DNA of 64,000 bases from an uncultured bacterium (GCA_903851135.1 CAINNK010000012.1:4282-68281); one strand, 5' to 3'; shown: positions 36,396-54,846, counted from the stretch's first letter. The notes: generated from the letters alone by a model not told the origin. Translations and numbers: made by a program.

Positions 36396-37028
36396 TTAAT
36401 TCTGCTTGATTCTGCTTGTTACTTTTGACCTATTTCCATTTGAAAGGAAGCTTACTAGAACTTTTGGCATAATTCCAGTTTCTCTTGCTATTCTTTCTCT
36501 TCCTTTGTAATCAGATTTTTCAGCAACTGAGAATATGTCAACAACTTCCACTCCAGCGCTTCTGAGCAACTTAACCATCGCTATGATAGTGCCGCCAGTA
36601 TCTATGATGTCGTCGACGATGATTGCTCTTTTTAAATTTGTCGAAAGACCATTTAGATACAATTTTCCATCCGTGTAGGCATTTTTAAAATCCACATGTA
36701 TTTCTCCTTCAAAACCAGCTGGATTCCATTTTGTTAGGGTGAAGGGTTTGTTAAATTGCATAGACAATATCGCGCAGAGATAGCCGCCCCTGTCTTCTTC
36801 ACCAACAATAAAATCAATATCATCGAAATTCACAATGCGAGAAGTTTCTTCTGCTATTTGTCTTAATAATTCAGGCCTTGTAATGGGAGCATGATCCGTT
36901 AAAGAGTTGACGCAGTATTTTTTGCCAGAAACCAATTTAATAGGTTTTTCGTTGAAAGTTTCAAAGATGTAATCACGCGCAGTATCTTTTTTTGAGGATA
37001 TAATACTTTTTTGATTCATATTTAGCAT
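36396..37028 (-). CDS. phosphoribosyltransferase (type I PRTase) family protein
   Basis: PRPP-binding motif RAIIVDDIIDTGGTIIAMVKLL. Confidence 0.75.
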   Translation of the reverse strand: MLNMNQKSIISSKKDTARDYIFETFNEKPIKLVSGKKYCVNSLTDHAPITRPELLRQIAEETSRIVNFDDIDFIVGEEDRGGYLCAILSMQFNKPFTLTKWNPAGFEGEIHVDFKNAYTDGKLYLNGLSTNLKRAIIVDDIIDTGGTIIAMVKLLRSAGVEVVDIFSVAEKSDYKGRERIARETGIMPKVLVSFLSNGNRSKVTSRIKQN

Positions 37029-37136
37029 ATTTTAGTTGGTTTAAATAAAGCATAACAAAATAATATACAACATTTCGACAAAATTATCAATAGTTATTTA
37101 CATGTATATGCCTTTGAAAGGCTTATAAAATGCAAA

Positions 37137-37187
37137 ATTAAAATTATTTGTCAAAGATGTTGACAAATATGGTGGTTTTTGGTAGGA
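37137..37187 (+). repeat. 51-bp direct repeat copy 2 (promoter TTGACA-17-TAGGAT driving the IR element and TrmB paralog)
   Basis: AATTAAAATTATTTGTCAAAGATGTTGACAAATATGGTGGTTTTTGGTAGG. Confidence 0.6.
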
Positions 37188-37212
37188 TTTAGGTAAGCTA
37201 ATTTTGTAATCA

Positions 37213-37318
37213 TGTCATTCTGAATTTATTTCAGGATCTCGGTTACAGGCAGTGTTGTGAAATAAAGAAAGTAGATTATGAAACCCTCCAAAGGCGGACA
37301 GGCAAGTTCAGAATGACA
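37213..37318. repeat. GTCATYC...GRATGAC inverted-repeat element, copy 3 (upstream of TrmB paralog)
   Basis: TGTCATTCTGAATTTATTTCAGGATCTCGGTTACAG ... GTTCAGAATGACA; left arm 30/35 identical to copy 1. Confidence 0.6.
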
Positions 37319-37332
37319 GCGGGATATGATAA

Positions 37333-37367
37333 AAAATCTAAAATCTAAAATCTAAAATCTAAAATCT
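37333..37367. repeat. (AAAATCT)x5 microsatellite immediately upstream of TrmB paralog start
   Basis: five perfect heptamer repeats. Confidence 0.8.
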
Positions 37368-37379
37368 ATTTAAAAATTT

Positions 37380-38123
37380 ATGGATCAAGACTTAATAAAA
37401 CTTTTGGAAACGACGGGTTTCACGGAAAAAGAGGCACAAGTGTATTTGGCGCTGGTTGAGCTTGGGACGGGAAACGTGACGGATATTTCGAAAACAACCA
37501 AGCTCAAGCGCTCGATTATTTATGTTATTTTGGAAGGCTTGATGAAAAGGGGCTATGCTAGTGAACTGCCAAATTTGAAAATCAACACCTATCAAGCGAC
37601 TGACCCGACTGTGATTTTGTCGCAACTCAAAAATGTGGCCAAAAATTTTTCAGAAATGCTCCCAATGATTCGCACGCTCGGCAGCAAGGGTAAGAGCAGA
37701 CCGAAAATCAGTTATTACGACACGAAAGAAGCAATCTTGAAGGCCTGGGAGATTATGGGTAACGAGGATGATATCTTTTATATTTATTCCTGCGAGAGAA
37801 GCGAACAGCATTATCCTGGCATAACTGATAAATGGGCTAAGGGATATAACAAAAAGATTTATCCTTTGGGAAATCGACATTTGGTGCCGAACAATAAAAG
37901 CGAAGTTGAAATAGCTCAAAAGTTTTTAGCAGTCGGCGAAAGAGTACGCTCGCTAGATGATTTAAATGGCATGAATATGGACTTTACTCTTTTCTCCAAT
38001 AAAATTTCAATTGTTTCACTTGAGGAAAATCCTTTTATTGTGGTCATTGAATCTGAGGAATTGGTCAAATCCATCCGGCCGATTTTTGAAATTGCCTGGG
38101 CGAAGGGAAAAGAGGTAAAATAG
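37380..38123 (+). CDS. TrmB-like winged-HTH transcriptional regulator (paralog)
   Basis: EAQVYLALVELGTGNVTDISKTTKLKRSIIYVILEGLMKRGY; collinear with the partial paralog at 1..372. Confidence 0.7.
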   Translation: MDQDLIKLLETTGFTEKEAQVYLALVELGTGNVTDISKTTKLKRSIIYVILEGLMKRGYASELPNLKINTYQATDPTVILSQLKNVAKNFSEMLPMIRTLGSKGKSRPKISYYDTKEAILKAWEIMGNEDDIFYIYSCERSEQHYPGITDKWAKGYNKKIYPLGNRHLVPNNKSEVEIAQKFLAVGERVRSLDDLNGMNMDFTLFSNKISIVSLEENPFIVVIESEELVKSIRPIFEIAWAKGKEVK

Positions 38124-38273
38124 TTTTGCTTGAAATGAAAAGTTTAGGGTGTTAGGATGAAATTAAGTTAAAAAGCCACAAAGTCGCAAGTTATAAAGTT
38201 ATAAAGTTAAAAAGGTATTGGGCATTTTGAATTTACACCATAATACATAATACTCGATACATCATACAAAGAC

Positions 38274-38990
38274 ATGAGCGGACATTCACATTGGGCGGGT
38301 ATTAAACAACGTAAAGGGGTTAATGATGCCAAACGGGCGAAAGTCTTTACGAGGCACGGCCGGCTTATTACAATTGCAGCTAAAGAAGGTGGTGGCAAGC
38401 CGGAAATGAACTTTAAACTGCAAATGGCTATTGATAGTGCCCGTTACATGAATATGCCAAAGGAAACTATTGAACGCGCAATTAAAAAAGGTACGGGCGA
38501 ACTCAAAGACGGGGCTGAGATTGAAGAAATTATCTATGAAGGCTATGGTCCTGGCAATGTGGCAATGCTCATTAAAACGGCCACGGACAATCGCAATCGC
38601 ACGGGCAGTGAAATCAGAAGCGTGCTGACCAAGGGCGGCGGCAAGCCTGCTAGTGAAGGCGGCGTGAAATTCATGTTCAAATTAGTTGGCAGCATTGCAG
38701 TTGCGGTTGGCGATAAAACAGTTGATGAATTGGAAATGTTGGCTATTGAAGCTGGAGCGGAAGATATGATTTTGGAAGAAGAAATTTTTGTGGTCTATAC
38801 CAAGGTTGAAGATTTGAAAACTGTGAAAGAACAGCTTGAGAAAGTTGGTCTCAAAATTGAAGGCGCCGAACTGGTCTATGTGGCCTTGCAAAAAACCGAA
38901 TTGGCAGAAAGCTCAAGAGTTGAATATGAAAAACTTTTGGAAAAACTTGATGAACATGAGGACGTGCAGGAAGTGTATGACAACCTATAA
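38274..38990 (+). CDS. yebC: YebC/PmpR family DNA-binding transcriptional regulator
   Basis: MSGHSHWAGIKQRKGVNDAKRAKVFTRHGRLITIAAKEGGG N-terminal signature. Confidence 0.9.
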   Translation: MSGHSHWAGIKQRKGVNDAKRAKVFTRHGRLITIAAKEGGGKPEMNFKLQMAIDSARYMNMPKETIERAIKKGTGELKDGAEIEEIIYEGYGPGNVAMLIKTATDNRNRTGSEIRSVLTKGGGKPASEGGVKFMFKLVGSIAVAVGDKTVDELEMLAIEAGAEDMILEEEIFVVYTKVEDLKTVKEQLEKVGLKIEGAELVYVALQKTELAESSRVEYEKLLEKLDEHEDVQEVYDNL

Positions 38991-39125
38991 AAAATTAAAA
39001 TGTAAATCTCAAAAATAAAAATGACAATTAAAAATTAAAAATGCATTCAGGTTAATAGTTTTGCATTTTTCTTTGTCATTTTCCATTTTGATTTTTTATT
39101 TTTACAATTTCTTTTTTAATATAGA
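38991..39125. repeat. AT-rich inverted-repeat element (family shared with 50692..50820 and 55744..55845)
   Basis: AATGTAAATCTCAAAAATAAAAATGACAAT ... and reverse-complement AAAATCAAAATGGAAAATGACAA (22-mer identical to 50705). Confidence 0.5.
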
Positions 39126-39130
39126 AAATA

Positions 39131-39661
39131 ATGCACAAACAAAAAGATATTTTAGCTCCCCAAGCACTGCGTGTTTTGGGCATTGACCCAGGAACTGCTA
39201 TCGTGGGCTGGGCTGTTTTGGAAGAATGCAAAGGTTGCGTCAAACCAATAGCCTATGGACATATCACAACTTCGCCAAAAAACAGCACAGCTGAGCGACT
39301 TTTGGAAGTGGTGAGGGATTTGGAAGAGATAATCCAAAAATTTGAGCCGCATGAGGCGGCGGTGGAAGATTTGTTCTTTTTCAAGAATCTCAAGACTGTG
39401 ATGAAAGTCAGCCAAGCTAGAGGCTCGATACTCTTGACACTCGAGCGATTTTGTGTTAGCATTTTTGAATATACACCGCTCCAAGTTAAGCAGGCAATTA
39501 CTGGTTACGGACGAGCTGAAAAAAAGCAAATTCAGATTATGACTCAGAAAATTTTAAATCTTAAAAGTATTCCCAAGCCAGACGACACGGCCGACGCGAT
39601 TGCGATTGCGCTTTGCCATTTGAATAGTCGAAAAATGACTTCGGTCAAAAAAGGTTGTTAA
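39131..39661 (+). CDS. ruvC: crossover junction endodeoxyribonuclease RuvC
   Basis: LRVLGIDPGTAIVGWAVLE catalytic Asp region, RNase H-like fold motifs. Confidence 0.9.
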   Translation: MHKQKDILAPQALRVLGIDPGTAIVGWAVLEECKGCVKPIAYGHITTSPKNSTAERLLEVVRDLEEIIQKFEPHEAAVEDLFFFKNLKTVMKVSQARGSILLTLERFCVSIFEYTPLQVKQAITGYGRAEKKQIQIMTQKILNLKSIPKPDDTADAIAIALCHLNSRKMTSVKKGC

Positions 39662-39682
39662 CTATTTTATAAAAGTATCTTT

Positions 39683-40339
39683 ATGGATAACATCAGTCCT
39701 ATCATTAGTTTTTTTGTCCGTCAGGGCGTGCCACTGGAAACTGTTATTTTGCTTTTAATTTTGCCAATCATTGTGACATTGATTGCTTTTTTTCGTCAGG
39801 TGGTCGGAATTAAGGCTTTCGGTATCTACACGCCGGCGATTGTGACTTTTGCTTTCTTGGCCGTGCCACAACTTCGCTATGGCGTGATTGTTTTTATCAG
39901 TGTGATTTTGGTTGGAATGTTAATGCGGGTCGCACTTAAGGGGCTGCGAATTCTTTATCTTCCGCGTGTGGCAATCACTCTAAGCGTGATTGCTTTTTCA
40001 ATTTTGATGCTGCTAGCTCTAGGGGGATACATGCAAAGAACTGGGCTTGCTAGTGTGACGATTTTTCCAATTTTGATTATGATTACAATTGTGGAGAAAT
40101 TCGTAGTAGTTCAAATTGAAAAAGGAAACAAAGCTGCTGTTATTTTAGCCATAGAGACTCTGGTTATTTCATTGGCCGGGTATTATTTGGCCAGTTGGCC
40201 CTTGTTGATCAGGGGTATCGTGGCTTTCCCATGGATGATTTTAATCACTATTCCGATTAACATTTTTCTTGGGAAATGGGATGGCCTGCGCTTGACCGAA
40301 TATGTCAGGTTTAAAGATGTTTTGAAGAATTTGAAGTAA
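39683..40339 (+). CDS. seven-TM membrane protein (7TM partner of ATP-grasp system)
   Basis: seven hydrophobic helices across 218 aa; 22 nt after ruvC stop. Confidence 0.55.
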   Translation: MDNISPIISFFVRQGVPLETVILLLILPIIVTLIAFFRQVVGIKAFGIYTPAIVTFAFLAVPQLRYGVIVFISVILVGMLMRVALKGLRILYLPRVAITLSVIAFSILMLLALGGYMQRTGLASVTIFPILIMITIVEKFVVVQIEKGNKAAVILAIETLVISLAGYYLASWPLLIRGIVAFPWMILITIPINIFLGKWDGLRLTEYVRFKDVLKNLK

Positions 40340-40485
40340 AAGCCCTACAAATTTTCAAATTAACTACAAATCTACAAATAAAATGCACAGTTAATAAATT
40401 TTTGTAAAAATGGTAGTTCCTTAATTTGTAGATTTGTGGAAACTATGAAAGATAATAAAATTAAAGTAATGATATATCGTCAATT

Positions 40486-41916
40486 ATGTTTGAGCAGTTC
40501 AAAAACGCACGAAAACTTTTGGGACTTAATGCTAGGAATCTGAACTATATTCGTCCGTACAACAAGAAAAAATCCAAACGGCTTGCTGATGACAAGCTTT
40601 TAAGCAAGCGCGCTTTGCGCAAAGGTGGAATTCCAGTGCCAAAACTTTTGGCTAAAATAAAATCAGCTGAAGAGTTGGAAAATTTCGATTGGGCAAGTTT
40701 GCCAGCCACTTTTGCGCTTAAGCCTAATCGAGGTTTTGGTGGGGGCGGAATTCTGGTTGTTTATGGTCGGAAAAAAGTTTCAAAAAAAATTCTTCAAGCT
40801 GATGAGCAAGCAATTTCTGAGCCAGTTTGGATCAAATCGGATGGCTCAAAAGTCACGGTTAGCGATTTGAAAAGTCATATTTTGAATATTTTGGACGGGG
40901 CATTTTCACTTTCAAACATGCCGGACATCGCTTTTTTTGAAGAGCGGTTAACGTTGCTGAAACTTTTCAAGCCCTATGCCTACAAAGGCATTCCAGATAT
41001 CCGCGTGATTGTTTTTAATCGTATTCCGGTGATGGCAATGCTAAGATTACCAACCAAGGAATCTGGTGGCAAAGCCAACTTGCAACAAGGTGGAATCGGA
41101 GTTGGGATTGACCTAAGTTCAGGGGTCACGACCACCGCCGTGCTTGGCAAGGGAAAAATTGTCGATTACGTTCCGGGAACCAGAATGCTTTTATCTGGAA
41201 TTAGGATTCCATATTGGAAAGAGATTTTGCTTTTGGCAGTCAAAGCACAAGAAATTTCTGGGATGGGATTTTTAGGCGCCGATGTGGCAATCGACAGGGA
41301 ACGTGGGCCGGTATTTTTGGAAATCAACGCGCGTCCTGGGCTTGGGATTCAAGTTGCCAACTTGGCTGGGCTGCGAGAAAGACTGGAGAGAATCAAAGGT
41401 TTGAAAATAAAAACAGCTGCCCGCGGAGTGCGCGTGGGAAGAGATTTGTTTGGTGGAGAAGTAGAAGAAGAAGTCGAGGAAATTTCTGGGCGAAAAGTGA
41501 TTGGAACGATTGAGAAAGTGAAATTGATTGGTAGAAATGAAAAAACGGTTGAAATTGAAGCCAAAGTCGACACTGGAGCTGGTTTTACTTCGATTGACAC
41601 TGATTTAGCTGAGCAACTTGGTTTTGAAGATACAGTGACGGAATTCCAAAAAATCGAGGCAACCTATCAAGACATTAAGCATCTGAGTAAAAAAGAGCGT
41701 TGGGATATCTATAAACATATCCCTCACCTTGAAAGCACAGTGGTGATTAATTCTGCTAGCGGCTCAACATATCGCCCAACTATTAAAATCACCGTAGTGA
41801 TGGATGGGGTGGTGATTCCAACGAAAGTCACTTTGATTAATCGGGCTCATTTGAAATATCCAATCATTGTTGGTAAAAGAAATTTGAAAAAGTTTTTGAT
41901 TGACGTAAATAAATAA
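40486..41916 (+). CDS. RimK-like ATP-grasp ligase fused to C-terminal retropepsin-like aspartyl peptidase
   Basis: N-terminal alpha-L-glutamate-ligase-like region (GFGGGGILVV, FLEINARPG); C-terminal EIEAKVDTGAGFTSID = D(T/S)GA aspartic protease signature. Confidence 0.75.
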   Translation: MFEQFKNARKLLGLNARNLNYIRPYNKKKSKRLADDKLLSKRALRKGGIPVPKLLAKIKSAEELENFDWASLPATFALKPNRGFGGGGILVVYGRKKVSKKILQADEQAISEPVWIKSDGSKVTVSDLKSHILNILDGAFSLSNMPDIAFFEERLTLLKLFKPYAYKGIPDIRVIVFNRIPVMAMLRLPTKESGGKANLQQGGIGVGIDLSSGVTTTAVLGKGKIVDYVPGTRMLLSGIRIPYWKEILLLAVKAQEISGMGFLGADVAIDRERGPVFLEINARPGLGIQVANLAGLRERLERIKGLKIKTAARGVRVGRDLFGGEVEEEVEEISGRKVIGTIEKVKLIGRNEKTVEIEAKVDTGAGFTSIDTDLAEQLGFEDTVTEFQKIEATYQDIKHLSKKERWDIYKHIPHLESTVVINSASGSTYRPTIKITVVMDGVVIPTKVTLINRAHLKYPIIVGKRNLKKFLIDVNK

Positions 41917-42876
41917 GTGTATATGAAAAATATTATCATAATGTATGCAGGGGATGATTGGAAAAAGACAGTCCCAATTTCCAATGAAGGAACCAGGATT
42001 GCGATTCAAGATTGGATGGTGCGAGCAGAGAAGGCGGGGGTTATGCTATATCGTGCTAGTATGAAATGGTACGACTGCGAAAAGAATCAATTCGAAAAAG
42101 CCTGGACATTTAAGAATGGAAGTTGGTTGAAAATTGAAAAGAGCATTCAGGCAGACCTGATTTATGATAAAGTATTGAGTAAATATGACTATTCTTTGTT
42201 AGATTTTAAATTAAAGATAGCGCAAAAAACAATTCTTTTTAATTCGCCACTTTTTCGAGCAATTTTTAATAGTAAACTTTCTCAATATGTTATGTTTGGC
42301 CAATTTATGCCATTTTCGCAAATTGCGAATGACGAAAGTGAACTGAAAATTGCAATAGCGCAAAGTCCGGCAGAAAAAATTGTAGTCAAGCCCCTGTATG
42401 GTTGCGGCGGGCAAGGCATTTTTATTGGAAAGAAAAGCGAGGCTCTTAATCAGGAATATAAATATCCAGTTTTAGCTCAGGAATTCATTGTGAGCGAAAA
42501 AGGTATTCCTGGAGTTTCTGAGAATGATGAAATCGCAGATCTGCGTCTTGTCTATCAGGGTGGCAAGATGGCTTATGCTCTTTCAAGGATTGCCGCCCAA
42601 GGGTCTTTCTTTACTAATCTGCATCAGGGTGCAACTGGAAAAATGATTCTCAATGAAATGATTCCGAATAGTTTAATGAAAATAGCAAAAGAGCTTAATC
42701 AAAAAATTTCTATTTTTCCTGGCGCGCAGTATTCTTTAGATTTTATTTTTGATAATTCTGGAAGACCTTATTTTATAGAAATGAACACAACTCCTGGCAT
42801 CGATCTTGTTACGTTGTTGGCGGATGAAAAAGTAAAGCAAGCTAACTTTGATTTTATAATTGATTTATTGAAATGA
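41917..42876 (+). CDS. ATP-grasp family ligase (second, stand-alone)
   Basis: VVKPLYGCGGQGIFIG, DLRLVYQGGK, SLDFIFDNSGRPYFIEMNTTPG (ATP-grasp catalytic E/N region); start abuts the preceding stop. Confidence 0.7.
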   Translation: MYMKNIIIMYAGDDWKKTVPISNEGTRIAIQDWMVRAEKAGVMLYRASMKWYDCEKNQFEKAWTFKNGSWLKIEKSIQADLIYDKVLSKYDYSLLDFKLKIAQKTILFNSPLFRAIFNSKLSQYVMFGQFMPFSQIANDESELKIAIAQSPAEKIVVKPLYGCGGQGIFIGKKSEALNQEYKYPVLAQEFIVSEKGIPGVSENDEIADLRLVYQGGKMAYALSRIAAQGSFFTNLHQGATGKMILNEMIPNSLMKIAKELNQKISIFPGAQYSLDFIFDNSGRPYFIEMNTTPGIDLVTLLADEKVKQANFDFIIDLLK

Positions 42877-43901
42877 AAAATAAAACTCCGCGTATTGCTA
42901 TGGTTGCACCACCTTTTGGTGATACGGGAGGTCCGGAAATTGTTGCTCAAAACTTGACAGATGCTTTTTTGGAGTTAGGCGTGGACGTAACCTTGTTTGC
43001 GCCAGCTGATTGGAATACTGATGCCAGGCACGTTGTGTCGCTCGAGAAAAGCATTTGGAATATGAAAAATATTCGGCAGCTTGGCTCGAAAGAATTTAGA
43101 AAAATTAAGATTTCCAGTCAGGAAAAAGTTCTGGATTCTCAGAAGGATTTTGATATTATCCATCTCCATTCGCAGCGATATGCTGCCGGTGTTTGCGAAA
43201 AAGCTGAAATTCCTTGTGTTATTTCATTTCACAATAGGATTTCTAAAGATGCTTTCGACAAAATGACAGATGTGAATCTTTATACAGTCGCGCTTAGCCA
43301 GTCTCAGCGTGGAGCTCTTGCGACCTCGGCCGTAATATACAACGGTGTTCCGACAAAAAAAATTCAGTATTCATTCGAAGCTGGAAAATATCTAATATTT
43401 GTTGGAAGGCTAACCGATCAAAAGGGAATTGACACTGCTATTGAAATTGCAAGAGAGGCAAAACAAAAACTTTTGATTTTTGGCAGAATTGGTAACACGC
43501 AAGACAGAAAAGACTTTTTCGCTGAAAAGATAGAGCCATTTCTAAGTGAGGATATTATATATAAAGGAGAGGTTGAGCATAGTCAAGTATATGAATATTT
43601 AAAAGGTGCCTCAGCGTTGCTTTTTCCAATTAGACGGCCCGAAGTTTGTCCGATGGTTGTAGCTGAAGCACTAGCGTGCGGAACGCCCATTATAGGCACA
43701 ACGATAGGACCGTTGCCGGAGCTTCTAAATAACCAGAAAGTTGCATTTCTTTCCGATAATTTTGCTGAGCTGGTTAATGCTGTAAAGAATACACATCTTT
43801 TTGATAGAAGAGCTTGCAGGAAATATGCCGAGGAAAATTTCGACAGCACTGTCATGGCTAAAAAATATCTGAAACTTTATGAGCAAATTCTCGGAAAATA
43901 A
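42873..43901 (+). CDS. GT4-family glycosyltransferase
   Basis: N-terminal PFGDTGGPEIVAQNL and C-terminal EVCPMVVAEALACGTPIIGT (GT4 EX7E-type region); 4-nt overlap with upstream gene. Confidence 0.8.
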   Translation: MKNKTPRIAMVAPPFGDTGGPEIVAQNLTDAFLELGVDVTLFAPADWNTDARHVVSLEKSIWNMKNIRQLGSKEFRKIKISSQEKVLDSQKDFDIIHLHSQRYAAGVCEKAEIPCVISFHNRISKDAFDKMTDVNLYTVALSQSQRGALATSAVIYNGVPTKKIQYSFEAGKYLIFVGRLTDQKGIDTAIEIAREAKQKLLIFGRIGNTQDRKDFFAEKIEPFLSEDIIYKGEVEHSQVYEYLKGASALLFPIRRPEVCPMVVAEALACGTPIIGTTIGPLPELLNNQKVAFLSDNFAELVNAVKNTHLFDRRACRKYAEENFDSTVMAKKYLKLYEQILGK

Positions 43902-44011
43902 ACAACATTTTTCAAGAAGTAGTTATTTTAAGACAACGCAAAGTAATGATTTTCGTTTGGAATATTTTTTCAAGGTGATATAATTACGAAATATCCATAA
44001 AGAAACAAATT

Positions 44012-44401
44012 ATGAGTTTTGAATTTTCAGGAAATCACATATCGGAAAACAAGAAAGAATCAAAGCCTTTTGATGAGCAATGGTATGAAAGATTTGAAAA
44101 AATCGGGGAGTTTAAAATTATTGGAATGTTTAATGGAGATAAGGATTGGCGCGAAAATCAAAAAAGTGATTTTTTAAATCAAAAGATTGAAAATCCGAAG
44201 CTGGACTATCCTGAATTAGAAAATTTCGATTTCAATAAAAAGGAGGAAGAGCTATTGACTCTTAAGGTAGACGTCTTGAAATTTGAGAATAATGAAATTG
44301 TTAAGCAAATCTATCGCTGGAAAATAAATGAAAAAATAGCAAGCGTGAGAATGTTGAGGTGCTCGAAAGAGGGAGATTCGCATAGGTTTAAAAGATATTA
44401 A
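44012..44401 (+). CDS. hypothetical protein; possibly N-terminal part of the downstream DUF1704-like gene (same frame, separated by one TAA)
   Basis: ORF in frame 2 ending TAA at 44399-44401; the downstream ORF continues in the same frame. Confidence 0.35.
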   Translation: MSFEFSGNHISENKKESKPFDEQWYERFEKIGEFKIIGMFNGDKDWRENQKSDFLNQKIENPKLDYPELENFDFNKKEEELLTLKVDVLKFENNEIVKQIYRWKINEKIASVRMLRCSKEGDSHRFKRY

Positions 44402-44437
44402 GAATATGTTTTTGGCAAGCCGGAAAAGGAAATTTTC

Positions 44438-45346
44438 TTGCAATCCCTTATTAAAGTTAAGCACGTGATTGATGGAAAAAGATCAGATTCTGATCAAAGA
44501 ATTATTGAGGCGATTGCAAGACTTGATCAAAATATAAACATACCAGAGGAAATTGAGACCTCTATTGATATAAACAGTTATGATTTTCCGAAATTAAAAT
44601 CAACTAAAAATGAGCCAGAATATTCCGCTGAAGAAATTAAAGTTGCTTTTCAGCGGGCATTATTGGAATGCAATGCTCAGGGGTGGTCGGTTGTTCTTGA
44701 CGAATCGGGAAACACTGCCATAAACGTCAATCAAGAAAATAAGACCGTCTATGTCCCAGCTGAGAGGAAGGTTAAGGAAACAAAACTCAAGGCGCTCATT
44801 GCCCATGAAATAGGTACGCATGCCCTAAGAAGAGAGAATGGCGAAAGGTCAAAACTAAAATTATTAGGTCTTGGGCTTGATCGCTATTTGAAAGGTGAAG
44901 AAGGTTTAGCCAGATATAAGGAACAAGAAATTATTGGCGCAACGGACTTCGCTGGTTTTGATTGTCATTTGGCAATTTCCCTGGCAATGGGGCTGGATGG
45001 CAAAAAAAGAGATTTCAGGGAAGTTTTTGACATTTTGCGTGATTATTATTTTGTGAAATCAAAAAATGCAAACAGGGATGAATCCTGGAAAAACGCGGAA
45101 GAATTAGCTTGGAAAAGATGCCTTAGAGCTTTTCGAGGTACAACCTGTGACATTCCAGGTGCTTGTTTCACCCAAGATATCGCTTATAGAGAGGGGAATA
45201 TTGGTATTTGGAATTTAGTCAAAAAAGATGACGATGAAATGCGAAGGGTAATGGTTGGAAAATATGACCCTACCAGTGAGCGTCACATCTGGATTCTTGA
45301 CCAACTTGGAATTTCAGATAGTGACCTGGAAACCCTTGCTAATTAA
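44438..45346 (+). CDS. DUF1704/QEGLA-motif HExxH metallopeptidase-like protein (possibly C-terminal part of a split gene)
   Basis: ALIAHEIGTHALRRE (HExxH) and GEEGLARYKEQE (QEGLA-like); track start is a TTG codon. Confidence 0.5.
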   Translation: MQSLIKVKHVIDGKRSDSDQRIIEAIARLDQNINIPEEIETSIDINSYDFPKLKSTKNEPEYSAEEIKVAFQRALLECNAQGWSVVLDESGNTAINVNQENKTVYVPAERKVKETKLKALIAHEIGTHALRRENGERSKLKLLGLGLDRYLKGEEGLARYKEQEIIGATDFAGFDCHLAISLAMGLDGKKRDFREVFDILRDYYFVKSKNANRDESWKNAEELAWKRCLRAFRGTTCDIPGACFTQDIAYREGNIGIWNLVKKDDDEMRRVMVGKYDPTSERHIWILDQLGISDSDLETLAN

Positions 45347-45554
45347 TTAGACTCTTGTATACTAGAGCAACTTTGAAAATAAGAGTATAATTAATTTTAG
45401 AACTTATGCATTTACTCTCAAATTCCTAGAGCGTAATTTGTTTACCAAGAAAGGTCCTAATGGTCTACTTAGCGCTTTGCTTGCCAAAAAAGTAAGTTGT
45501 AAGTAATTTTCGATTAAGCACATAAGTCCTAAGATTATATTTATCAGATATATT

Positions 45555-48068
45555 ATGAAACCAATATTTATCTCACAAAATTTTAAGAAACTCAAGAACA
45601 TGTCTGCCAAGGACAAATGGAAACTGGCTGGAAAAATTGCAGCTGGTCTTTTTGCGGCTGGAATCCTTTTTGTGGTGGGAACTTTTCTTTATTTTTCCAA
45701 GGATTTGCCAAGTGCTAACTCAGTGGATGCAAAATTAGTCATTCAATCGACAAAAATCTATGATCGTAGCGGACAGCATCTTTTGTATGATGTGCATGGA
45801 GAAGAAAAAAGGACCATCGTGCCATTTAATCAGATTCCTGATAATGTGAAATATGCGGCGATTGCGCTGGAAGATCAAACTTTCTACACTCATCACGGCA
45901 TAGATCTGAAGTCGATTTTGCGTTCGGCTTATAATGATATTCTTAAGCGAGGAGCAGCTCAGGGTGGCAGCACAATCACACAGCAGTTTATTAAAAATTC
46001 TTTTTTGACTAACGAAAAAACAATAACTCGCAAAATCAAAGAGTTGATTTTAACAATTGAACTTGAACAAAAATATTCCAAAGATGATATTTTGGGGATG
46101 TATTTGAATCAAATTCCTTATGGCTCGAGTGCTTATGGGGTTGAAGCCGCCGCCCAAACTTTTTTTGCCAAATCAGCCAAGGATTTGACACTTGCTCAGG
46201 CCGCTTTACTGGCTTCACTTCCAAATGCTCCGACTTATTATTCTCCATTCGGTTCTCATACTAAGGATTTGATAGTTAGGCAGAAATCAGCTTTGCAGAA
46301 AATGGCCAATCAGGGTTATATTACGCAAGCGCAAGCGGATGAAGCAAAAAATGAAGATGTACTTTCAGAAGTGACCCCAAAGCAGGATAATATTTCAGCT
46401 CCGCACTTTGTGATGTATGTGAAGGATTATTTAAATCAGAAATATGGCGAGCAGGCGGTTGAGCAGGGAGGCTTAAGAGTTTATACAACGCTTGATTGGG
46501 ACAAACAACAGGCAGCTGAAAAAGCAGTTAGTGATGGTGCTGCAAAAAATGTTGTTAATAAAGCAAGTAACGCGGCGCTAGTTGCGATGGATCCAAAAAC
46601 TGGGCAAATTTTGGCAATGGTGGGGTCAAAAAATTATTTTGACAAATCCATTGATGGACAAGTAAACGTAGCCTTGGCGAACCGACAACCAGGATCTTCT
46701 TTCAAACCGTATGTCTATCTAACAGCTTTCACAAAGGGTTATACGCCGGAAACCTTGCTTTATGATGTGCCGACAAATTTTAGTACTGATTCTGGCAAGG
46801 ATTATACTCCGCAAAATTATGATGGAACTTTTCATGGTCCGCTTCAGATGAAAAATGCGCTGGCCATGTCACTTAATATTCCTGCCGTGAAAACTCTTTA
46901 TTTGGCTGGTGTTAATGATTCGATTACATTGGCAAAAAATCTTGGAATTAAGGGGCTTAACCAGCCGGATCGTTATGGTTTGTCGCTTGTTTTGGGTGGA
47001 GGTGAGGTTACTTTACTTGATCACGTCGATGCTTATGGCGCTTTAGCGACAGGTGGAGTTCATCACAATGAAACTGCGATTTTGAAAATTCAAGATAAAG
47101 ACGGGACAGTATTAGAAGAATATAAACAAGATGAAGGTCAGCGCGCAGTGGATGAAAAATATGTAGCCATGCTTGATTATATTATGTCAACCAATGATTT
47201 CAGGGCGCCAGTTTTCGGGGATAATAATCCCTTTAAATTCACTGATCGTCCGGTGGCGGCAAAAACCGGAACCACAAATGAATTCAGAGATGGTTGGGCG
47301 ATGGGATTTACGCCGTCGATCGTGGTTGGCGTTTGGGCTGGCAACAATGACAATTCTCCAATGAAGGCAGGCGCTGATGGAATTGTGGTGGCGGCTCCAA
47401 TTTGGCGAGCTTTCATGAATCAAGCGCTGGCAAACACACCCGTAGAGCAGTTTCCGAAATATGAAAAAGAAGACGCCGGGAAAGCGGTTTTAAATGGCGA
47501 GGTTGATAAGCAAAGCAATTTAAAGGTTTGTAAAATTCCAGGAAGTAAAGGTGATTACTGCTTGGCAAATGATGCTTGTCCGCCTTCGGACGTTGAAAAA
47601 AAGGATTTTGCCGATATTCATGATATTCTTTATTATGTTAATAAGGATGATCCAAGAGGTGATGCGCCAAAAGATCCGACGAGCGATCCTCAGTTTAAAA
47701 ACTGGGAAAAGGGCGTTCAAGAGTGGCTCAAAAATGATGGAAAAGGCAACAAGAATAATGGTCCGGCGCCGACAGCTGACTGCAAAAAATCAGATTTCTC
47801 TTCTGCTAATCAACCAAAGATTTCCGTTTCAGCTTCTGGCAGTGTTTCCGGCGGTGTGACAATCAAGGCGGATGTAAATGCGCCATACGAAGTGGACAAA
47901 GTTTCTTTTTCAGTAAATGGTGATGATGCCGGATCGTCCGGGTCTGTTCCATACCAAGTTTCTTATTCTCCAGCTGTCGGCACAACTTCAATTGAAGTCA
48001 AGGCGACTGTCACTGACAAGCAGGGAAATCAGGCAAGTGATTCAAAAACGGTTTCGGTGAATCCATAA
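45555..48068 (+). CDS. class A penicillin-binding protein (transglycosylase plus transpeptidase, PBP1A-type)
   Basis: GT51 motifs EDQTFYTHHGID, RGAAQGGSTITQQF; transpeptidase GSSFKP, KTGTT; Ig-like C-terminal extension. Confidence 0.9.
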   Translation: MKPIFISQNFKKLKNMSAKDKWKLAGKIAAGLFAAGILFVVGTFLYFSKDLPSANSVDAKLVIQSTKIYDRSGQHLLYDVHGEEKRTIVPFNQIPDNVKYAAIALEDQTFYTHHGIDLKSILRSAYNDILKRGAAQGGSTITQQFIKNSFLTNEKTITRKIKELILTIELEQKYSKDDILGMYLNQIPYGSSAYGVEAAAQTFFAKSAKDLTLAQAALLASLPNAPTYYSPFGSHTKDLIVRQKSALQKMANQGYITQAQADEAKNEDVLSEVTPKQDNISAPHFVMYVKDYLNQKYGEQAVEQGGLRVYTTLDWDKQQAAEKAVSDGAAKNVVNKASNAALVAMDPKTGQILAMVGSKNYFDKSIDGQVNVALANRQPGSSFKPYVYLTAFTKGYTPETLLYDVPTNFSTDSGKDYTPQNYDGTFHGPLQMKNALAMSLNIPAVKTLYLAGVNDSITLAKNLGIKGLNQPDRYGLSLVLGGGEVTLLDHVDAYGALATGGVHHNETAILKIQDKDGTVLEEYKQDEGQRAVDEKYVAMLDYIMSTNDFRAPVFGDNNPFKFTDRPVAAKTGTTNEFRDGWAMGFTPSIVVGVWAGNNDNSPMKAGADGIVVAAPIWRAFMNQALANTPVEQFPKYEKEDAGKAVLNGEVDKQSNLKVCKIPGSKGDYCLANDACPPSDVEKKDFADIHDILYYVNKDDPRGDAPKDPTSDPQFKNWEKGVQEWLKNDGKGNKNNGPAPTADCKKSDFSSANQPKISVSASGSVSGGVTIKADVNAPYEVDKVSFSVNGDDAGSSGSVPYQVSYSPAVGTTSIEVKATVTDKQGNQASDSKTVSVNP

Positions 48069-48236
48069 TTGCAAATAGAATTTCGCAAGTATACATTTTT
48101 CTTTTTATCCTAGTGAAAGTTTTTTACGACTTTTTGAGATGTTGACATCAAAGCGAATCACTTTCAAACGAAAAAAGAAAAAGCCTGCTTGTTCAAAGCT
48201 AAGATATCTAAAAAAGAAAATTATTAAATTTAAAAT

Positions 48237-48812
48237 ATGATTGCTAAACTAAAAGGTACGATTGATTTTTTGCGCGACTCTTATGTAGTTGTTGATGTTG
48301 GCGGCGTTGGATACAAGGTTTTCTTGACTACTCACACCTTCGGTATGATTGCCGGAAAAACCAATGTTGAGCTTTATATTCACACTTATGTACGTGAAGA
48401 TATTTTAGCGCTGTATGGTTTCGTGGATTTTGAAGAACTTGAAATGTTTGAACTTTTGATTTCAATTTCTGGAATTGGGCCTAAAGCCGCTTTGGGCATT
48501 CTTTCAATTGCTGATCCTAAGACAGTTCGAACTGCAGTTTTGAATGAAGACCCAGCTATTTTGACCAGAGTCTCTGGTGTTGGCAAAAAAACAGCGCAAA
48601 GAGTCATCTTGGAATTAAAAAATAAAATTTCAGATATTCCTATGCACGAGAAAGCCCAAGTGGTTTCCGATAGCGATGCGCTGGAAGCCTTGGTCACAAT
48701 GGGTTATTCCGTCTCGCAAGCGCGCGAAACTCTAAAAGAAATTTCTCCGGAAATAAAAGATGTTGGACAGCGAGTTAAATTAGCTTTGAAAAATCTAGGC
48801 AGAAGGGGCTAA
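48237..48812 (+). CDS. ruvA: Holliday junction DNA helicase RuvA
   Basis: MIAKLKGTI..VVVDVGGVGYKV OB-fold N-terminus, HhH ISISGIGPKAALGILS. Confidence 0.9.
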   Translation: MIAKLKGTIDFLRDSYVVVDVGGVGYKVFLTTHTFGMIAGKTNVELYIHTYVREDILALYGFVDFEELEMFELLISISGIGPKAALGILSIADPKTVRTAVLNEDPAILTRVSGVGKKTAQRVILELKNKISDIPMHEKAQVVSDSDALEALVTMGYSVSQARETLKEISPEIKDVGQRVKLALKNLGRRG

Positions 48813-48943
48813 ACTTGTTCGAATTTTTAAAATAGTCGCGCGCTCTTTTATTTGTGGTATAATTTAAACAAAGTTTTTGATTGAAACATAAAAAATAAAA
48901 AGCGCTTGCCAAATGTTTGGCAACCTGGCAATTCACAACATAA

Positions 48944-49426
48944 ATGGTTAAACAAAAAATATCAATAAAAAATAATTTGGCAGCGAAAAGAAGAGTCACG
49001 AAAGGTTCAACATTGGCTTTTTCATTGATAATTTTGGCTATGATGTTGACAATTGCAATGGGAATAGCGTCAGTGGAATTGATTCAGAAAAAAAATGCCA
49101 GTTCAACTCAATTTTCAGTTCAAGCCTATCAAGTTGCGGACGGTGGAACCTTGTACGCATTCAAAAAAATAGACAATGCGCGAAAAACTAGTGCTGACAT
49201 CAAATCTGAATTTAGCACCTGCACCTTTCCTGGGGACGTTAAAGATGTTGTAGAGTTTGGTGGCGACACTTCTTTTGATCTTTCTTTTTATGACGCTGAT
49301 GGTTTGCAGCTCGGATGCGACGCTTCTTCTATGGATGTTGCTAACATTAAATCAGTAGGCAGGTTTCACAATACGGTTCGTGCAGTTAATATCGGAGTAG
49401 AGGCGGCCACTCCGCCAACCCCATAG
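48944..49426 (+). CDS. hypothetical membrane-anchored protein (weakly pilin-like N-terminus)
   Basis: KG|STLAFSLIILAMMLTIAMGIASV hydrophobic segment; lacks the canonical Glu+5, so a pilin call is not supported. Confidence 0.4.
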   Translation: MVKQKISIKNNLAAKRRVTKGSTLAFSLIILAMMLTIAMGIASVELIQKKNASSTQFSVQAYQVADGGTLYAFKKIDNARKTSADIKSEFSTCTFPGDVKDVVEFGGDTSFDLSFYDADGLQLGCDASSMDVANIKSVGRFHNTVRAVNIGVEAATPPTP

Positions 49427-49566
49427 GATTGTCTTTTATTGTCTAAGAAAAGAAGTTTTTTTCTTGAGACTTTAGCAAAAATCAAATTCAAAACAAAAAC
49501 AAAAGAGCATTTTTCTTTAAATATGCTCTTTTGTTTTTGTTTTGTTTTATTGCTATAATTAGGCTT

Positions 49567-50691: not shown

Positions 50692-50820
50692 TAAAATTAA
50701 AAATTGAAAAATCAAAATGGAAAATGACATTGAAAAATGTAAAATTTTAAAAGCAGCTACTATTTTTAATTTTAAATTGTCATTTTGATTTTTGAGATTT
50801 GCATTTTACATTCATAATTA
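50692..50820. repeat. AT-rich inverted-repeat element (same family as 38991..39125)
   Basis: AAAATCAAAATGGAAAATGACATTGAAAAATGTAAAAT ... ATTGTCATTTTGATTTTTGAGATTTGCATTTTACATT. Confidence 0.5.
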
Positions 50821-54383: not shown

Positions 54384-54419
54384 CTGTTCTATATGTTCTA
54401 GTTGTCGTAATTGATGTAA

Positions 54420-54806: not shown

Positions 54807-54846
54807 CAATTACAACATATATAACACCTAGAACATTTAGAACAAT

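What the first reader, a model, noticed from the sequence alone, without database searches (positions are those of the whole stretch)
39683..45346. 7TM + ATP-grasp::retropepsin fusion + second ATP-grasp + GT4 + split DUF1704/QEGLA HExxH protein: candidate amino-acid-ligase/peptidase surface-modification system
Four tightly packed genes run 39683-43901: a seven-helix membrane protein, a RimK-like ATP-grasp whose C-terminus carries a clear D(T/S)GA retropepsin signature (KVDTGAGFTSID), a stand-alone ATP-grasp with abutting start/stop, and a GT4 glycosyltransferase overlapping it by 4 nt. A DUF1704-like protein (HEIGTH plus EEGLA) follows after an intergenic gap. From established knowledge: RimK-type ligases partner with retropepsin-like peptidases (Pfam Zn_protease, RimB in rimABK). 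Comparative genomics (Iyer, Abhiman, Burroughs, Aravind 2009) links ATP-grasp peptide ligases to 7TM proteins and to DUF1704 HExxH peptidases as ligase/reversal pairs. The fusion of ligase and aspartyl peptidase in one chain, the two ligases plus a sugar transferase in one operon, and placement right after ruvC are unusual. By inference the module could build and trim a peptide or glycopeptide tag on an envelope substrate.
Basis: partly seen in the sequence, partly recalled or inferred. Interest (0 to 1): 0.7.

Follow-up and report, generated by a model that had tools for sequence, protein, structure and literature searches.

The report
Rlo-like peptide ligase/peptidase module, fused form
This is a variant, from tiny uncultured Patescibacteria, of the recently described bacterial rloABC system: a membrane protein, an ATP-driven amino-acid ligase and the protease that undoes its work, here with ligase and protease joined in one protein; the kind is known, this form is undescribed, and nobody yet knows what the system makes.

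Summary
A non-conserved 146-nt spacer separates gene 1 from gene 2. The DUF1704 metal motif is HExxxH (HEIGTH), not HExxH. The "split" DUF1704 is one gene cut by a single in-frame TAA, which two other assemblies reproduce.

The core is a Patescibacteria (Candidatus Moranbacteria) version of the Pseudomonas rloABC system (mBio 2025). It has an RloB-type 7TM protein without the transglutaminase domain. It also has an RloC-type ATP-grasp ligase (PF14397/TIGR02291) fused at its C-terminus to an RloA-type retropepsin. That domain keeps the catalytic DTGA and the Lys/Arg residues that bind poly-glutamate in RloA.

7TM followed by ligase is nearly universal (69 of 73 species-level loci), and the retropepsin fusion is common (59 of 80). 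Other lineages fuse the same ligase to DUF1704/MATCAP, to a second ATP-grasp, or to the 7TM. These fusions tie the parts into one system. Extra ATP-grasps, GT4 and DUF1704/DUF3541 are variable accessories. The ruvC/PBP1A setting is lineage synteny.

Best reading: a membrane-docked ligase builds a Glu-rich peptide, and built-in peptidases trim it. The product and target are unknown. Verdict: new variant of a known kind, moderate interest.

The parts
39683..40339 (+). RloB-like 7TM membrane protein (218 aa) that lacks the N-terminal inactive transglutaminase domain
   Evidence: PF14402 E 3.1e-29, profile positions 58-247 only. NCBIfam RloB model positions 308-508 of 508. Lies directly upstream of the ligase in 69 of 73 loci. 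7TM::ATPgrasp_ST fusions exist, for example P0263. Many invariant polar residues in 35 homologues.
40486..41916 (+). 476-aa fusion of an RloC-type ATP-grasp ligase with an RloA-type retropepsin
   Evidence: AF2 model mean pLDDT 77.4. Foldseek PDB top hits are ArgX/LysX, RimK, PsnB and CphA1. No N-terminal signal peptide, read directly from the sequence.
40534..41397 (+). ATPgrasp_ST (PF14397/TIGR02291) ligase domain, aa 17-304
   Evidence: PF14397 216.6 bits; TIGR02291 263.6 bits. D266, E279 and N281 are invariant. Identifying them as the Mg/ATP ligands is from general knowledge of ATP-grasp enzymes. 42-45% identical to RloC of canonical rloABC operons.
41452..41490 (+). Conserved Glu-rich linker GGEVEEEVEEISG (aa 323-335)
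   Evidence: Nearly invariant E325, E327, E328, E329 and invariant E331 in 41 homologues. Low-pLDDT segment 325-339. Its role is unknown.
41497..41910 (+). Retropepsin-like (PF05618, RloA/RimB-like) peptidase domain, aa 338-475
   Evidence: Profile A2 against PDB: 9G59 1.5e-10, 9G58 4.3e-9, 2PMA 1.2e-6, Ddi1 3e-3. Structural hits to phage and retroviral aspartic proteases. pLDDT about 72-94 across the domain.
41569..41580 (+). Catalytic motif D362-T-G-A
   Evidence: Invariant in A1 (41 sequences). In A2 (24 diverse sequences) D, G and A are invariant and T is in at least 90%. Aligned with DTGA of the RloA structures. K360, R430 and R453 correspond to RloA K46, R114 and R137, the poly-Glu contacts.
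41917..42876 (+). Stand-alone second ATP-grasp ligase (probable start ATG 41923)
Evidence: RimK 1e-12, GSH-S 4.5e-12, YheCD 9.8e-13. Best PDB matches are RimK 5e-5 and GshB 4e-4. Always paired with the GT4 when the GT4 is present.
42873..43901 (+). GT4 glycosyltransferase, overlapping the previous gene by 4 nt
   Evidence: PF00534 and PF13439. Closest solved relative is glucosylsucrose synthase TeGSS 7FG9, E 2.4e-39 over the full length, followed by tetrahydrobiopterin glucosyltransferase and BshA. Orthologues at 53% identity or more sit after the second ATP-grasp in all 11 loci with readable context.
44012..45346 (+). DUF1704/MATCAP-family metallocarboxypeptidase gene (444 codons) interrupted by one nonsense codon
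   Evidence: Read-through product scores 89.1 bits on PF08014 with 2 matched stretches. HEIGTH at 44804-44821 and EEGLA at 44897-44911. Intact orthologues occupy the same slot in L029 and L099/L100.
44399..44401 (+). In-frame TAA that splits the DUF1704 gene
   Evidence: Homologues have Ser or Gly at this position inside a conserved block (window KRY*EYVFGKP; L039 KRYSEFIYGKP; L071 KRYGEFVYGKP; L099 ARYSSFIYGEP). Identical TAA in L091 (ENA) and L092 (Logan), 0 mismatches over 5664 nt.

Best explanation
This is a Patescibacteria (Candidatus Moranbacteria) form of the Rlo system.

Proposed mechanism:
1. A cytoplasmic RloC-type ATP-grasp ligase works docked on a 7TM partner (RloB-like, here without the transglutaminase ectodomain).
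2. Using ATP, it builds an acidic peptide, most probably alpha-linked and Glu-rich, either free or as a tail on a membrane-proximal acceptor.
3. The retropepsin domain fused to the ligase is a poly-Glu-type endopeptidase. It trims or limits that product at the site of synthesis, and may also regulate the ligase, as RimB does for RimK.
4. The DUF1704/MATCAP-type carboxypeptidase is a second, exo-acting reversal enzyme. In this organism it is knocked out by a nonsense codon, leaving the retropepsin as the working peptidase.
5. The extra ATP-grasp plus GT4 cassette is an optional decoration or extension module.

Shown: domain identities, intact catalytic motifs, conservation of the poly-Glu-contact residues, gene linkage and gene fusions.

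Inferred: the chemistry (Glu), the acceptor, any export through the 7TM protein, and the physiological role (envelope or osmotic homeostasis, by analogy with Rlo phenotypes).
For: - Domain hits.
- The ligase is 42-45% identical to RloC encoded in canonical rloA-rloB-rloC operons that the same query retrieved.
- The 7TM gene lies directly upstream in 69 of 73 species-level loci, and the retropepsin is fused in 59 of 80.
- Fusions link the parts: 7TM::ligase (P0263); ligase::retropepsin::DUF1704 (P0121, P0127); ligase::retropepsin::second ATP-grasp (P0144).
- There are 44 ligase proteins of 740-830 aa, and 42 carry HExxxH...EGLA. In 40 of those 42 the DTGA motif is lost. An alignment of 13 members shows that a retropepsin-derived domain remains. 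This looks like one peptidase being replaced by the other.
- The retropepsin profile matches the RloA crystal structures over their full length, with DTGA aligned. D, R430 and R453 are invariant, and K360 is in at least 90% of sequences.
- The R430-R453 spacing of 23 residues equals that of RloA R114-R137. Those are poly-Glu contacts, and their mutation strongly reduces activity in vitro and abolishes complementation in vivo.
- Both peptidase families have characterised members that act on Glu-rich or polyglutamylated substrates and oppose ATP-grasp ligases: RimB/RloA and MATCAP/TMCP.
- In Pseudomonas, loss of rloB or rloC suppresses the loss of the RloA proteases. That is, the protease removes something that RloB and RloC make.
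- The fusion protein has no signal peptide, and the protease domain has no Cys pair. This fits a cytosolic location, as with RimB.
Against: - No product or substrate is known for any RloC-family ligase, so Glu specificity is extrapolated from the peptidases and from RimK.
- The retropepsin is cytoplasmic here but periplasmic in Pseudomonas, so the logic of the system may differ.
- The 7TM model (pLDDT 70) has no significant structural neighbour in the PDB, so its role as dock, exporter or acceptor is untested.
- No ORF in the window has an acidic tail or a poly-D/E run that could be a target.
- The GT4's closest solved relatives use small soluble acceptors, which fits a peptide-tag model poorly.
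- Both NCBIfam matches are below the curated cut-offs: TIGR02291 263.6 against 314.2, and RloA3 42.7 against 210.
Confidence: 0.5

Rival explanations
1. A RimK/RimB-like cytoplasmic protein-tail modifier. The ligase polyglutamylates the C-terminus of a soluble protein such as ribosomal protein S6, and the fused retropepsin and DUF1704 reverse it. The 7TM protein only tethers or regulates the enzyme.
For: Ligase and protease are both cytoplasmic, as with RimK/RimB. RimB stimulates RimK, and an active RimB-RimK hybrid exists. The ATP-grasp fold is closest to RimK and LysX/ArgX, which act on protein C-termini. MATCAP-family enzymes act on protein C-terminal tails.
Against: The ATP-grasp belongs to the RloC family, not RimK (TIGR00768 52.5 bits against a cut-off of 143.4). 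The retropepsin hits the RloA models, and the RimB model is not among the matches at E 0.01 or better. The near-obligate 7TM partner and the 7TM::ligase fusions point to a membrane site. No candidate acidic-tailed protein is encoded nearby.
Confidence: 0.15
2. A small-molecule or glycoconjugate pathway. The ATP-grasp enzymes amidate a sugar acid or build a short peptide on a glycoside made by the GT4, for example a compatible solute or a low-molecular-weight thiol-like compound. The peptidases recycle it.
For: The GT4's closest solved relatives act on small soluble acceptors: glucosylsucrose synthase 2.4e-39, tetrahydrobiopterin glucosyltransferase, BshA. The second ATP-grasp's best NCBIfam hits are glutathione synthases. 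One relative fuses a YdjC-type sugar deacetylase to the ligase-retropepsin protein (P0122). Pfam names PF14397 'sugar-transfer associated'.
Against: The GT4 orthologue is present in only 5 of 59 loci and extra ATP-grasps in 27 of 59, so they are not core. The constant partners are two peptidase families whose characterised members cut Glu-rich peptides or protein tails. Endopeptidase residues for an 8-residue poly-Glu substrate are conserved.
Confidence: 0.12
3. A peptidoglycan-precursor modifier. The ATP-grasp ligases add side-chain or bridge amino acids to the stem peptide, like the ATP-grasp D-Asp ligase of enterococci. The peptidases edit the result, coupled to the adjacent PBP1A, FemAB and Mur-ligase genes.
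For: In this window the module is followed by PBP1A (45555-48068), a FemAB-family gene (49531-50691) and a Mur ligase (50799-52271). PBP1A lies downstream in 16 of 18 Moranbacteria-clade loci. Pseudomonas rlo mutants have cell-shape, beta-lactam and hypo-osmotic phenotypes.
Against: The link to PBP1A disappears outside the clade (1 of 33), as does the link to ruvC (4 of 43), while 7TM, ligase and peptidase persist. So this is lineage synteny. Nothing ties a poly-Glu-type endopeptidase to stem peptides.
Confidence: 0.1

Closest known systems
rloABC operon of Pseudomonas aeruginosa and other Proteobacteria (Lormand et al., mBio 2025, PMC12239564)
   Same: The same three families are linked genetically: a PF14402 7TM protein, a PF14397/TIGR02291 ATP-grasp and a PF05618 retropepsin with DTGA. 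The Lys/Arg residues that contact poly-Glu are conserved. The protease presumably removes what the ligase and 7TM protein make.
   Different: Here the 7TM protein lacks the inactive transglutaminase ectodomain (218 aa against about 506-533 aa in L088 and L090). The retropepsin is fused to the C-terminus of the ligase, has no signal peptide or disulfide Cys pair, and so is cytoplasmic rather than secreted. Gene order is B then C::A instead of A-B-C. There are extra ATP-grasp, GT4 and DUF1704/DUF3541 accessories. The host is Patescibacteria, whereas that paper found 96% of RloB hits in Proteobacteria.
RimK/RimB (rimABK) and the RimBK hybrid of Desulfotalea psychrophila (JBC 2025, PMC11957791)
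   Same: An ATP-grasp alpha-L-glutamate ligase is paired, and sometimes fused, with a cytoplasmic retropepsin that cleaves poly-Glu and modulates the ligase.
   Different: In RimBK the retropepsin is N-terminal to a RimK-family domain. Here it is C-terminal to an RloC-family domain, which implies an independent fusion event. There is no 7TM partner in rim loci. The target, RpsF, is known there and unknown here.
TTL/TTLL ligases opposed by MATCAP/TMCP (KIAA0895L, PF08014) on tubulin tails
   Same: An ATP-grasp ligase is opposed by a DUF1704-family HExxxH + EEG metallocarboxypeptidase that acts on acidic tails and deglutamylates. In some Patescibacteria the two are one polypeptide.
   Different: That system is eukaryotic and cytoskeletal, and its enzymes are separate proteins. 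The bacterial substrate is unknown, and in this window the gene carries a nonsense codon.
ATP-grasp / 7TM-transglutaminase / acid-peptidase and ATP-grasp / DUF1704 gene neighbourhoods predicted by Iyer, Abhiman, Burroughs and Aravind 2009 (recalled from memory; the paper could not be retrieved)
   Same: The same families are predicted to act as peptide ligase and reversal peptidase pairs.
   Different: That work was a prediction from gene context. Whether it already listed the Patescibacteria fusion forms could not be checked here.

Membership tests
Rlo system (RloA/RloB/RloC) | RloC: cytoplasmic ATP-grasp of the TIGR02291/PF14397 family | tested here: met
   PF14397 216.6 bits (cut-off 31.4). 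TIGR02291 E 2e-78 and 263.6 bits, below the equivalog cut-off of 314.2. 42-45% identical to RloC in canonical operons.
Rlo system (RloA/RloB/RloC) | [quoted passage not shown] | tested here: not met
   Only the 7TM half is present (RloB model positions 308-508 of 508; 83.4 bits against a cut-off of 900). All Patescibacteria homologues listed are about 217-233 aa.
Rlo system (RloA/RloB/RloC) | RloA: retropepsin fold with a catalytic DTG(A) motif and a basic substrate channel | tested here: met
   Profile hits to 9G59 and 9G58 at 1.5e-10 and 4.3e-9. DTGA invariant in A1. K360, R430 and R453 align with RloA K46, R114 and R137. Structural hits to aspartic proteases.
Rlo system (RloA/RloB/RloC) | RloA is secreted (signal peptide, conserved disulfide) | tested here: not met
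   The domain is C-terminal to an ATP-grasp. There is no hydrophobic N-terminus and no Cys in the domain (criterion).
Rlo system (RloA/RloB/RloC) | The three functions are encoded together | tested here: met
   7TM upstream in 69 of 73 loci and retropepsin fused in 59 of 80.
Rlo system (RloA/RloB/RloC) | Role in hypo-osmotic tolerance, cell shape and antibiotic tolerance; rloB/rloC loss suppresses protease loss | not testable with these tools
   This needs genetics, and the host is uncultured.
RimK/RimB (RimBK) | RimK-family ATP-grasp (TIGR00768/PRK10446) | tested here: not met
   TIGR00768 52.5 bits against a cut-off of 143.4. The RloC-family model scores far higher.
RimK/RimB (RimBK) | RimB-type retropepsin; in hybrids it lies N-terminal to RimK | tested here: not met
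   The RimB model NF052261 is not among the hits at E 0.01 or better, whereas RloA1-3 are. The domain order is the reverse of RimBK.
RimK/RimB (RimBK) | Polyglutamylation of RpsF | not testable with these tools
   Biochemical property.
DUF1704 / MATCAP (PF08014) | Family profile match plus the HExxxH and EEG metal and catalytic motifs | tested here: met
   68.7 bits for the C-terminal ORF and 89.1 bits read through, against a cut-off of 27. HEIGTH and EEGLA present. Motif definition.
DUF1704 / MATCAP (PF08014) | Uninterrupted coding sequence | tested here: not met
   TAA at 44399-44401, reproduced in L091 and L092. Orthologues are intact in L029 and L099.
GT4 glycosyltransferase | GT-B fold with Glyco_transf_4 N-terminal domain and Glycos_transf_1 C-terminal domain | tested here: met
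   PF13439 5.7e-10 and PF00534 1.4e-22. Full-length match to TeGSS 7FG9 at 2.4e-39.

The most novel reading that the evidence does not exclude
The 7TM-plus-ligase pair is a coupled synthase and exporter for a poly-alpha-glutamate-like polyanion. This polyanion sets envelope charge and osmotic balance, a peptide counterpart of osmoregulated glucans or teichoic acids. The fused retropepsin acts as a built-in ruler or safety valve. This would explain why loss of the Rlo proteases is lethal in hypo-osmotic medium and is suppressed by loss of rloB or rloC. It would also explain why Patescibacteria alternately hard-wire one of two Glu-directed peptidases onto the ligase. The conserved Glu-rich linker could be a pseudo-substrate or a self-cleavage site.
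Probability: 0.2. Interest if true: 0.7.

Novelty: new variant of a known kind. Interest (0 to 1): 0.45.

Why it matters
The product of the Rlo system is still unknown, even though the system affects antibiotic tolerance, biofilm formation and cell shape in Pseudomonas.

The Patescibacteria forms give independent genomic evidence about it:
- The same ligase is repeatedly fused to its 7TM partner.
- It is also fused, alternately, to two unrelated peptidase families. Characterised members of both act on Glu-rich or polyglutamylated substrates.

This narrows the hypothesis to a Glu-rich peptide made at the membrane. It also offers compact single-chain enzymes for biochemistry.

The finding extends the Rlo system well beyond Proteobacteria, into organisms with minimal genomes. 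That suggests a basic envelope or homeostatic role.

Tried and rejected
- **Rfam scan of 37000-49500, both strands:** no match at E 1 or better. The 146-nt 7TM-ligase spacer is not conserved among close relatives, so no RNA element is proposed.
- **7TM structure:** AF2 model with pLDDT 70. Foldseek against the PDB gave nothing significant (best E 0.54, RnfA). The afdb50 library was not available.
- **Foldseek PDB with the whole fusion:** only ATP-grasp hits. The protease domain was recovered through the viral library and a profile search.
- **Acidic-tail or poly-D/E ORFs in the window as candidate substrates:** none found.
- **Promoter and terminator scan:** promoter-like sites exceeded shuffles (36 against 22.9 ± 3.7), but no operon boundary could be drawn. 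The only notable site is a promoter-like match at 43957-43984, before DUF1704.
- **DUF3541, which replaces DUF1704 in relatives:** no solved homologue.
- **Iyer et al. 2009:** could not be retrieved. Literature searches for the Pfam/TIGRFAM names found nothing on the Patescibacteria form.
- **TAA as an assembly error:** made unlikely by two other assemblies that are identical. Recoding was rejected because TAA also ends the fusion gene.
- **PBP1A/ruvC as part of the system:** rejected, because the linkage is clade-specific.

Full report
**1. What is in the sequence**

Profile searches confirm every domain call.

| Coordinates | Length | Best matches |
|---|---|---|
| 39683-40339 | 218 aa | PF14402 7TM_transglut, E 3.1e-29. 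Matches only the C-terminal 7TM half of the NCBIfam RloB model |
| 40486-41916 | 476 aa | PF14397 ATPgrasp_ST, E 5e-64, aa 17-304; TIGR02291, E 2e-78; PF05618 retropepsin-like, E 5.6e-10, aa 338-475; RloA3 model, E 4.5e-11 |
| 41917-42876 | 319 aa | Generic RimK/GshB/YheCD-type ATP-grasp |
| 42873-43901 | 342 aa | GT4; overlaps the previous gene by 4 nt |
| 44438-45346 | 302 aa | PF08014 (DUF1704, now called MATCAP), E 5.9e-19 |

Four corrections apply.
- A 146-nt AT-rich spacer lies between the 7TM gene and the fusion gene. It is not conserved even among close relatives.
- The second ATP-grasp probably starts at ATG 41923.
- The DUF1704 metal motif is HEIGTH, that is HExxxH, followed by EEGLA. 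This is the signature of the MATCAP/TMCP family.
- The "split" is one in-frame TAA at 44399-44401.

Best hits name the organism as Candidatus Moranbacteria, in the Patescibacteria/CPR group.

**2. The DUF1704 gene is a nonsense allele, not two genes**

- Read through the TAA, the 444-codon product scores 89.1 bits on PF08014 with two matched stretches. The downstream ORF alone scores 68.7 bits.
- Relatives with the same gene order (L029, L099/L100) have an uninterrupted DUF1704 of about 450 aa in that slot.
- They carry Ser where the window has TAA, inside a conserved block: window KRY*EYVFGKP, L099 ARYSSFIYGEP, L039 KRYSEFIYGKP.
- Two other assemblies from different samples, one from ENA and one from Logan, are identical over all 5664 nt of the module, including the TAA.
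- The stop therefore seems real in this population. The catalytic motifs downstream are intact. Whether the two pieces still work is unknown.

**3. The fusion protein**

- In 41 homologues at 66-93% identity, D362-T-G-A is invariant. So are D266, E279 and N281, which I read from general knowledge of ATP-grasp enzymes as the Mg/ATP ligands.
- AF2 gives mean pLDDT 77.4, and about 72-94 across the C-terminal domain.
- Foldseek against the PDB finds ArgX/LysX, RimK, PsnB and cyanophycin synthetase for the N-terminal part.
- A profile of 24 diverse C-terminal domains matches the RloA crystal structures over their full length, with DTGA aligned. E-values are 1.5e-10 for 9G59 and 4.3e-9 for 9G58. These two entries are P. 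fluorescens RloA and P. aeruginosa RloA2.
- The same profile then matches Legionella 2PMA (1.2e-6) and Ddi1 (3e-3).
- Foldseek against viral models returns several aspartic proteases:
  - a phage acid protease (E 3.3e-7, TM 0.71);
  - another phage aspartic protease (rmsd 2.0 Å over 136 columns);
  - DDI1-type, caulimovirid and HTLV-3 Gag-Pro proteases.
- K360, R430 and R453 align with RloA K46, R114 and R137. The 23-residue spacing between the two Arg residues is the same.
- In RloA these residues contact a modelled octa-glutamate. R114A and R137A had the strongest effects on activity and failed to complement in vivo.
- In the diverse alignment the two Arg residues are invariant and the Lys is in at least 90% of sequences.
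- The protein has no signal peptide, and the protease domain has no cysteine. Periplasmic RloA proteins have both a signal peptide and a conserved disulfide, which cytosolic RimB lacks. The protease here is therefore cytoplasmic.

**4. Comparative genomics**

The fusion is abundant. More than 120 clusters at 65-95% identity have the same architecture.

One scan of species-representative genomes returned 80 loci:

| Feature | Loci with it / loci assessable |
|---|---|
| 7TM gene directly upstream of the ligase | 69 / 73 |
| Retropepsin fused to the ligase | 59 / 80 |
| DUF1704 fused to the ligase | 8 / 80 |
| DUF1704 fused or nearby | 14 / 59 |
| At least one extra ATP-grasp | 27 / 59 |
| GT4 orthologue | 5 / 59 |
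| DUF3541 | 3 / 59 |

- The loci come from Moranbacteria and from genomes labelled Paceibacteria, Dojkabacteria, Saccharibacteria, Nomurabacteria, Kaiserbacteria, Woesebacteria, Levybacteria, Shapirobacteria, Peregrinibacteria and Gracilibacteria.
- Close relatives carry one to three extra ATP-grasps. The last slot holds DUF3541, DUF1704 or nothing.
- GT4 orthologues at 53% identity or more sit immediately after the second ATP-grasp in all 11 metagenome loci with readable context. The second ATP-grasp and GT4 thus form a two-gene cassette.
- The order ruvC, module, PBP1A, ruvA holds in the Moranbacteria-like clade: ruvC in 22 of 24 loci and PBP1A in 16 of 18.
- It vanishes outside that clade: ruvC in 4 of 43 and PBP1A in 1 of 33. 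It is lineage synteny, not part of the system.
- Proteobacterial loci retrieved by the same query show the canonical order rloA, then full-length rloB (about 506-533 aa), then rloC.

**5. Fusions tie the parts together**

A search of 1.84 billion representative proteins, followed by Pfam scans and motif counts, shows these architectures:
- ligase::retropepsin, about 430-500 aa;
- 7TM::ligase (P0263);
- ligase::retropepsin::second ATP-grasp (P0144);
- ligase::retropepsin::YdjC (P0122);
- a large class of 740-830 aa, with 44 representatives among the top 150. Of these, 42 carry HExxxH...(E/Q)EGLA.

In that last class an alignment of 13 members shows a retropepsin-derived domain still sitting between the ligase and DUF1704. 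In 40 of the 42 motif-bearing proteins DTGA is lost. In the aligned members it has decayed (for example DTSR, NTTR, NLNQ, DPGQ) and the two Arg residues are mostly gone. A few proteins (P0121, P0127, P0153) keep DTGA.

I read this as one peptidase replacing another on the same ligase. In the window the reverse holds: the retropepsin is intact and DUF1704 carries a stop codon.

**6. What is known**

- Lormand et al. (mBio 2025) named the Pseudomonas operon rloABC.
  - RloA proteases are secreted retropepsins that cleave runs of eight or more glutamates.
  - Loss of all three RloA proteases causes hypo-osmotic lethality and defects in cell shape, biofilm formation and antibiotic tolerance.
  - Deleting rloB or rloC suppresses these defects.
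  - The ligase product is unknown. That paper found 96% of RloB hits in Proteobacteria.
- The JBC 2025 paper on RimB shows a cytoplasmic retropepsin that removes poly-Glu from RpsF and stimulates RimK.
  - It also describes a RimB-RimK hybrid in which the protease is N-terminal. That is the opposite order, on a different ATP-grasp family.
- MATCAP/TMCP enzymes are HExxxH + EEG carboxypeptidases that process acidic tubulin tails and remove polyglutamylation.
- Searches found no paper on the Patescibacteria form.
- Iyer et al. 2009 could not be read. What I say about it is from memory.

**7. Mechanism**

Best-supported reading, with confidence about 0.5:
- A cytoplasmic RloC-type ligase docked on the 7TM protein builds an acidic, probably alpha-Glu-rich peptide.
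- The fused retropepsin, an endopeptidase, trims or limits it. So does DUF1704, a carboxypeptidase, where it is intact.
- Extra ATP-grasps and the GT4 extend or decorate the product.

Shown: domains, motifs, conserved substrate-contact residues, gene linkage and gene fusions.

Inferred: Glu chemistry, the acceptor, export, and physiology.

Rivals:
- a RimK-like modifier of a soluble protein, about 0.15;
- a small-molecule or glycoconjugate pathway, about 0.12. This is prompted by three observations:
  - the GT4's closest solved relatives are glucosylsucrose synthase, tetrahydrobiopterin glucosyltransferase and BshA;
  - the second ATP-grasp has glutathione-synthase-like hits;
  - one relative carries a YdjC fusion;
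- a peptidoglycan-precursor modifier, about 0.1. This is prompted by PBP1A, FemAB and Mur ligase downstream, but weakened by the clade-limited linkage.

**8. Verdict**

The ligase/peptidase logic holds. "Envelope tag" remains inference. The claims of unusualness are weaker than stated.
- This is a new variant of a known kind (Rlo-like), of moderate interest. Its main value is as comparative evidence about what Rlo systems make.

Noticed in passing
window 41452-41490 (aa 323-335 of the fusion): A conserved Glu-rich linker, GGEVEEEVEEISG, sits immediately before a protease domain whose relatives cleave poly-Glu. It could be a pseudo-substrate or a self-cleavage site. It is also kept in relatives whose retropepsin motif has decayed.
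   Followed up: partly
window 41623-41730 (aa about 380-415): Moranbacteria-type retropepsin domains, and some other lineages, carry a helical insertion of about 40 residues between the DTGA strand and the flap-like hairpin. Many other Patescibacteria lineages lack it.
   Followed up: no
L007:8116-9036, L097:7040-7936, L001:11359-12270: In close relatives the slot held here by DUF1704 is occupied by a DUF3541 (PF12060) protein of about 305 aa. It has no recognisable catalytic motif and no solved homologue. It may be a functional alternative.
   Followed up: partly
L057, L062, L065, L067, L069, L074, L081, L086; proteins P0127-P0170: In loci labelled Peregrinibacteria, Peribacteria, Gracilibacteria, Altimarinota and others, the ligase is an ORF of about 750-810 aa. 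It ends in a DUF1704/MATCAP domain, with a mostly inactivated retropepsin-like domain in between.
   Followed up: yes
L058:2416-3313; L035:6695-7628: Some loci have a fused retropepsin followed by a separate free retropepsin gene. In L058 the fused copy has DTGL and the free copy has DTGA. In L035 both are intact. A fused/free heterodimer is possible.
   Followed up: partly
L097 (Ga0194047_10000487): Here the fusion protein is 98-99% identical to the window's, while flanking genes are about 86-92% identical. The second ATP-grasp and GT4 are only about 80% identical, and the last slot holds DUF3541 instead of DUF1704. The core looks unusually conserved and the accessory cassette looks fast-evolving or exchanged.
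   Followed up: no
window 45555-52271 and 53832-55743: Downstream lie PBP1A, ruvA, a FemAB-family gene (49531-50691) and a Mur ligase (50799-52271), followed by LemA (53832-54383) and an M48 peptidase (54847-55743). This is a cell-wall and membrane gene cluster interleaved with ruvC and ruvA.
   Followed up: partly
L007:4440-4650: In this relative the 7TM-ligase spacer contains tandem heptamer repeats (AAGAATC and AAGATAC runs) that are absent from the window.
   Followed up: no
L014, L017, L020, L044, L046 and others: Several 'binchicken' and SRP co-assembly MAGs are labelled Bdellovibrionales, Gammaproteobacteria or Pseudomonadales. Yet they carry loci 44-66% identical to the Moranbacteria fusion protein, some of them with Moranbacteria-type synteny. 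The record titles look taxonomically unreliable.
   Followed up: no
window 43957-43984: A sigma-70-like match (TTGGAA, 16 nt, TATAAT, with an upstream TG) lies in the 110-nt gap before the DUF1704 start. It hints that DUF1704 is transcribed separately from the four upstream genes.
   Followed up: no
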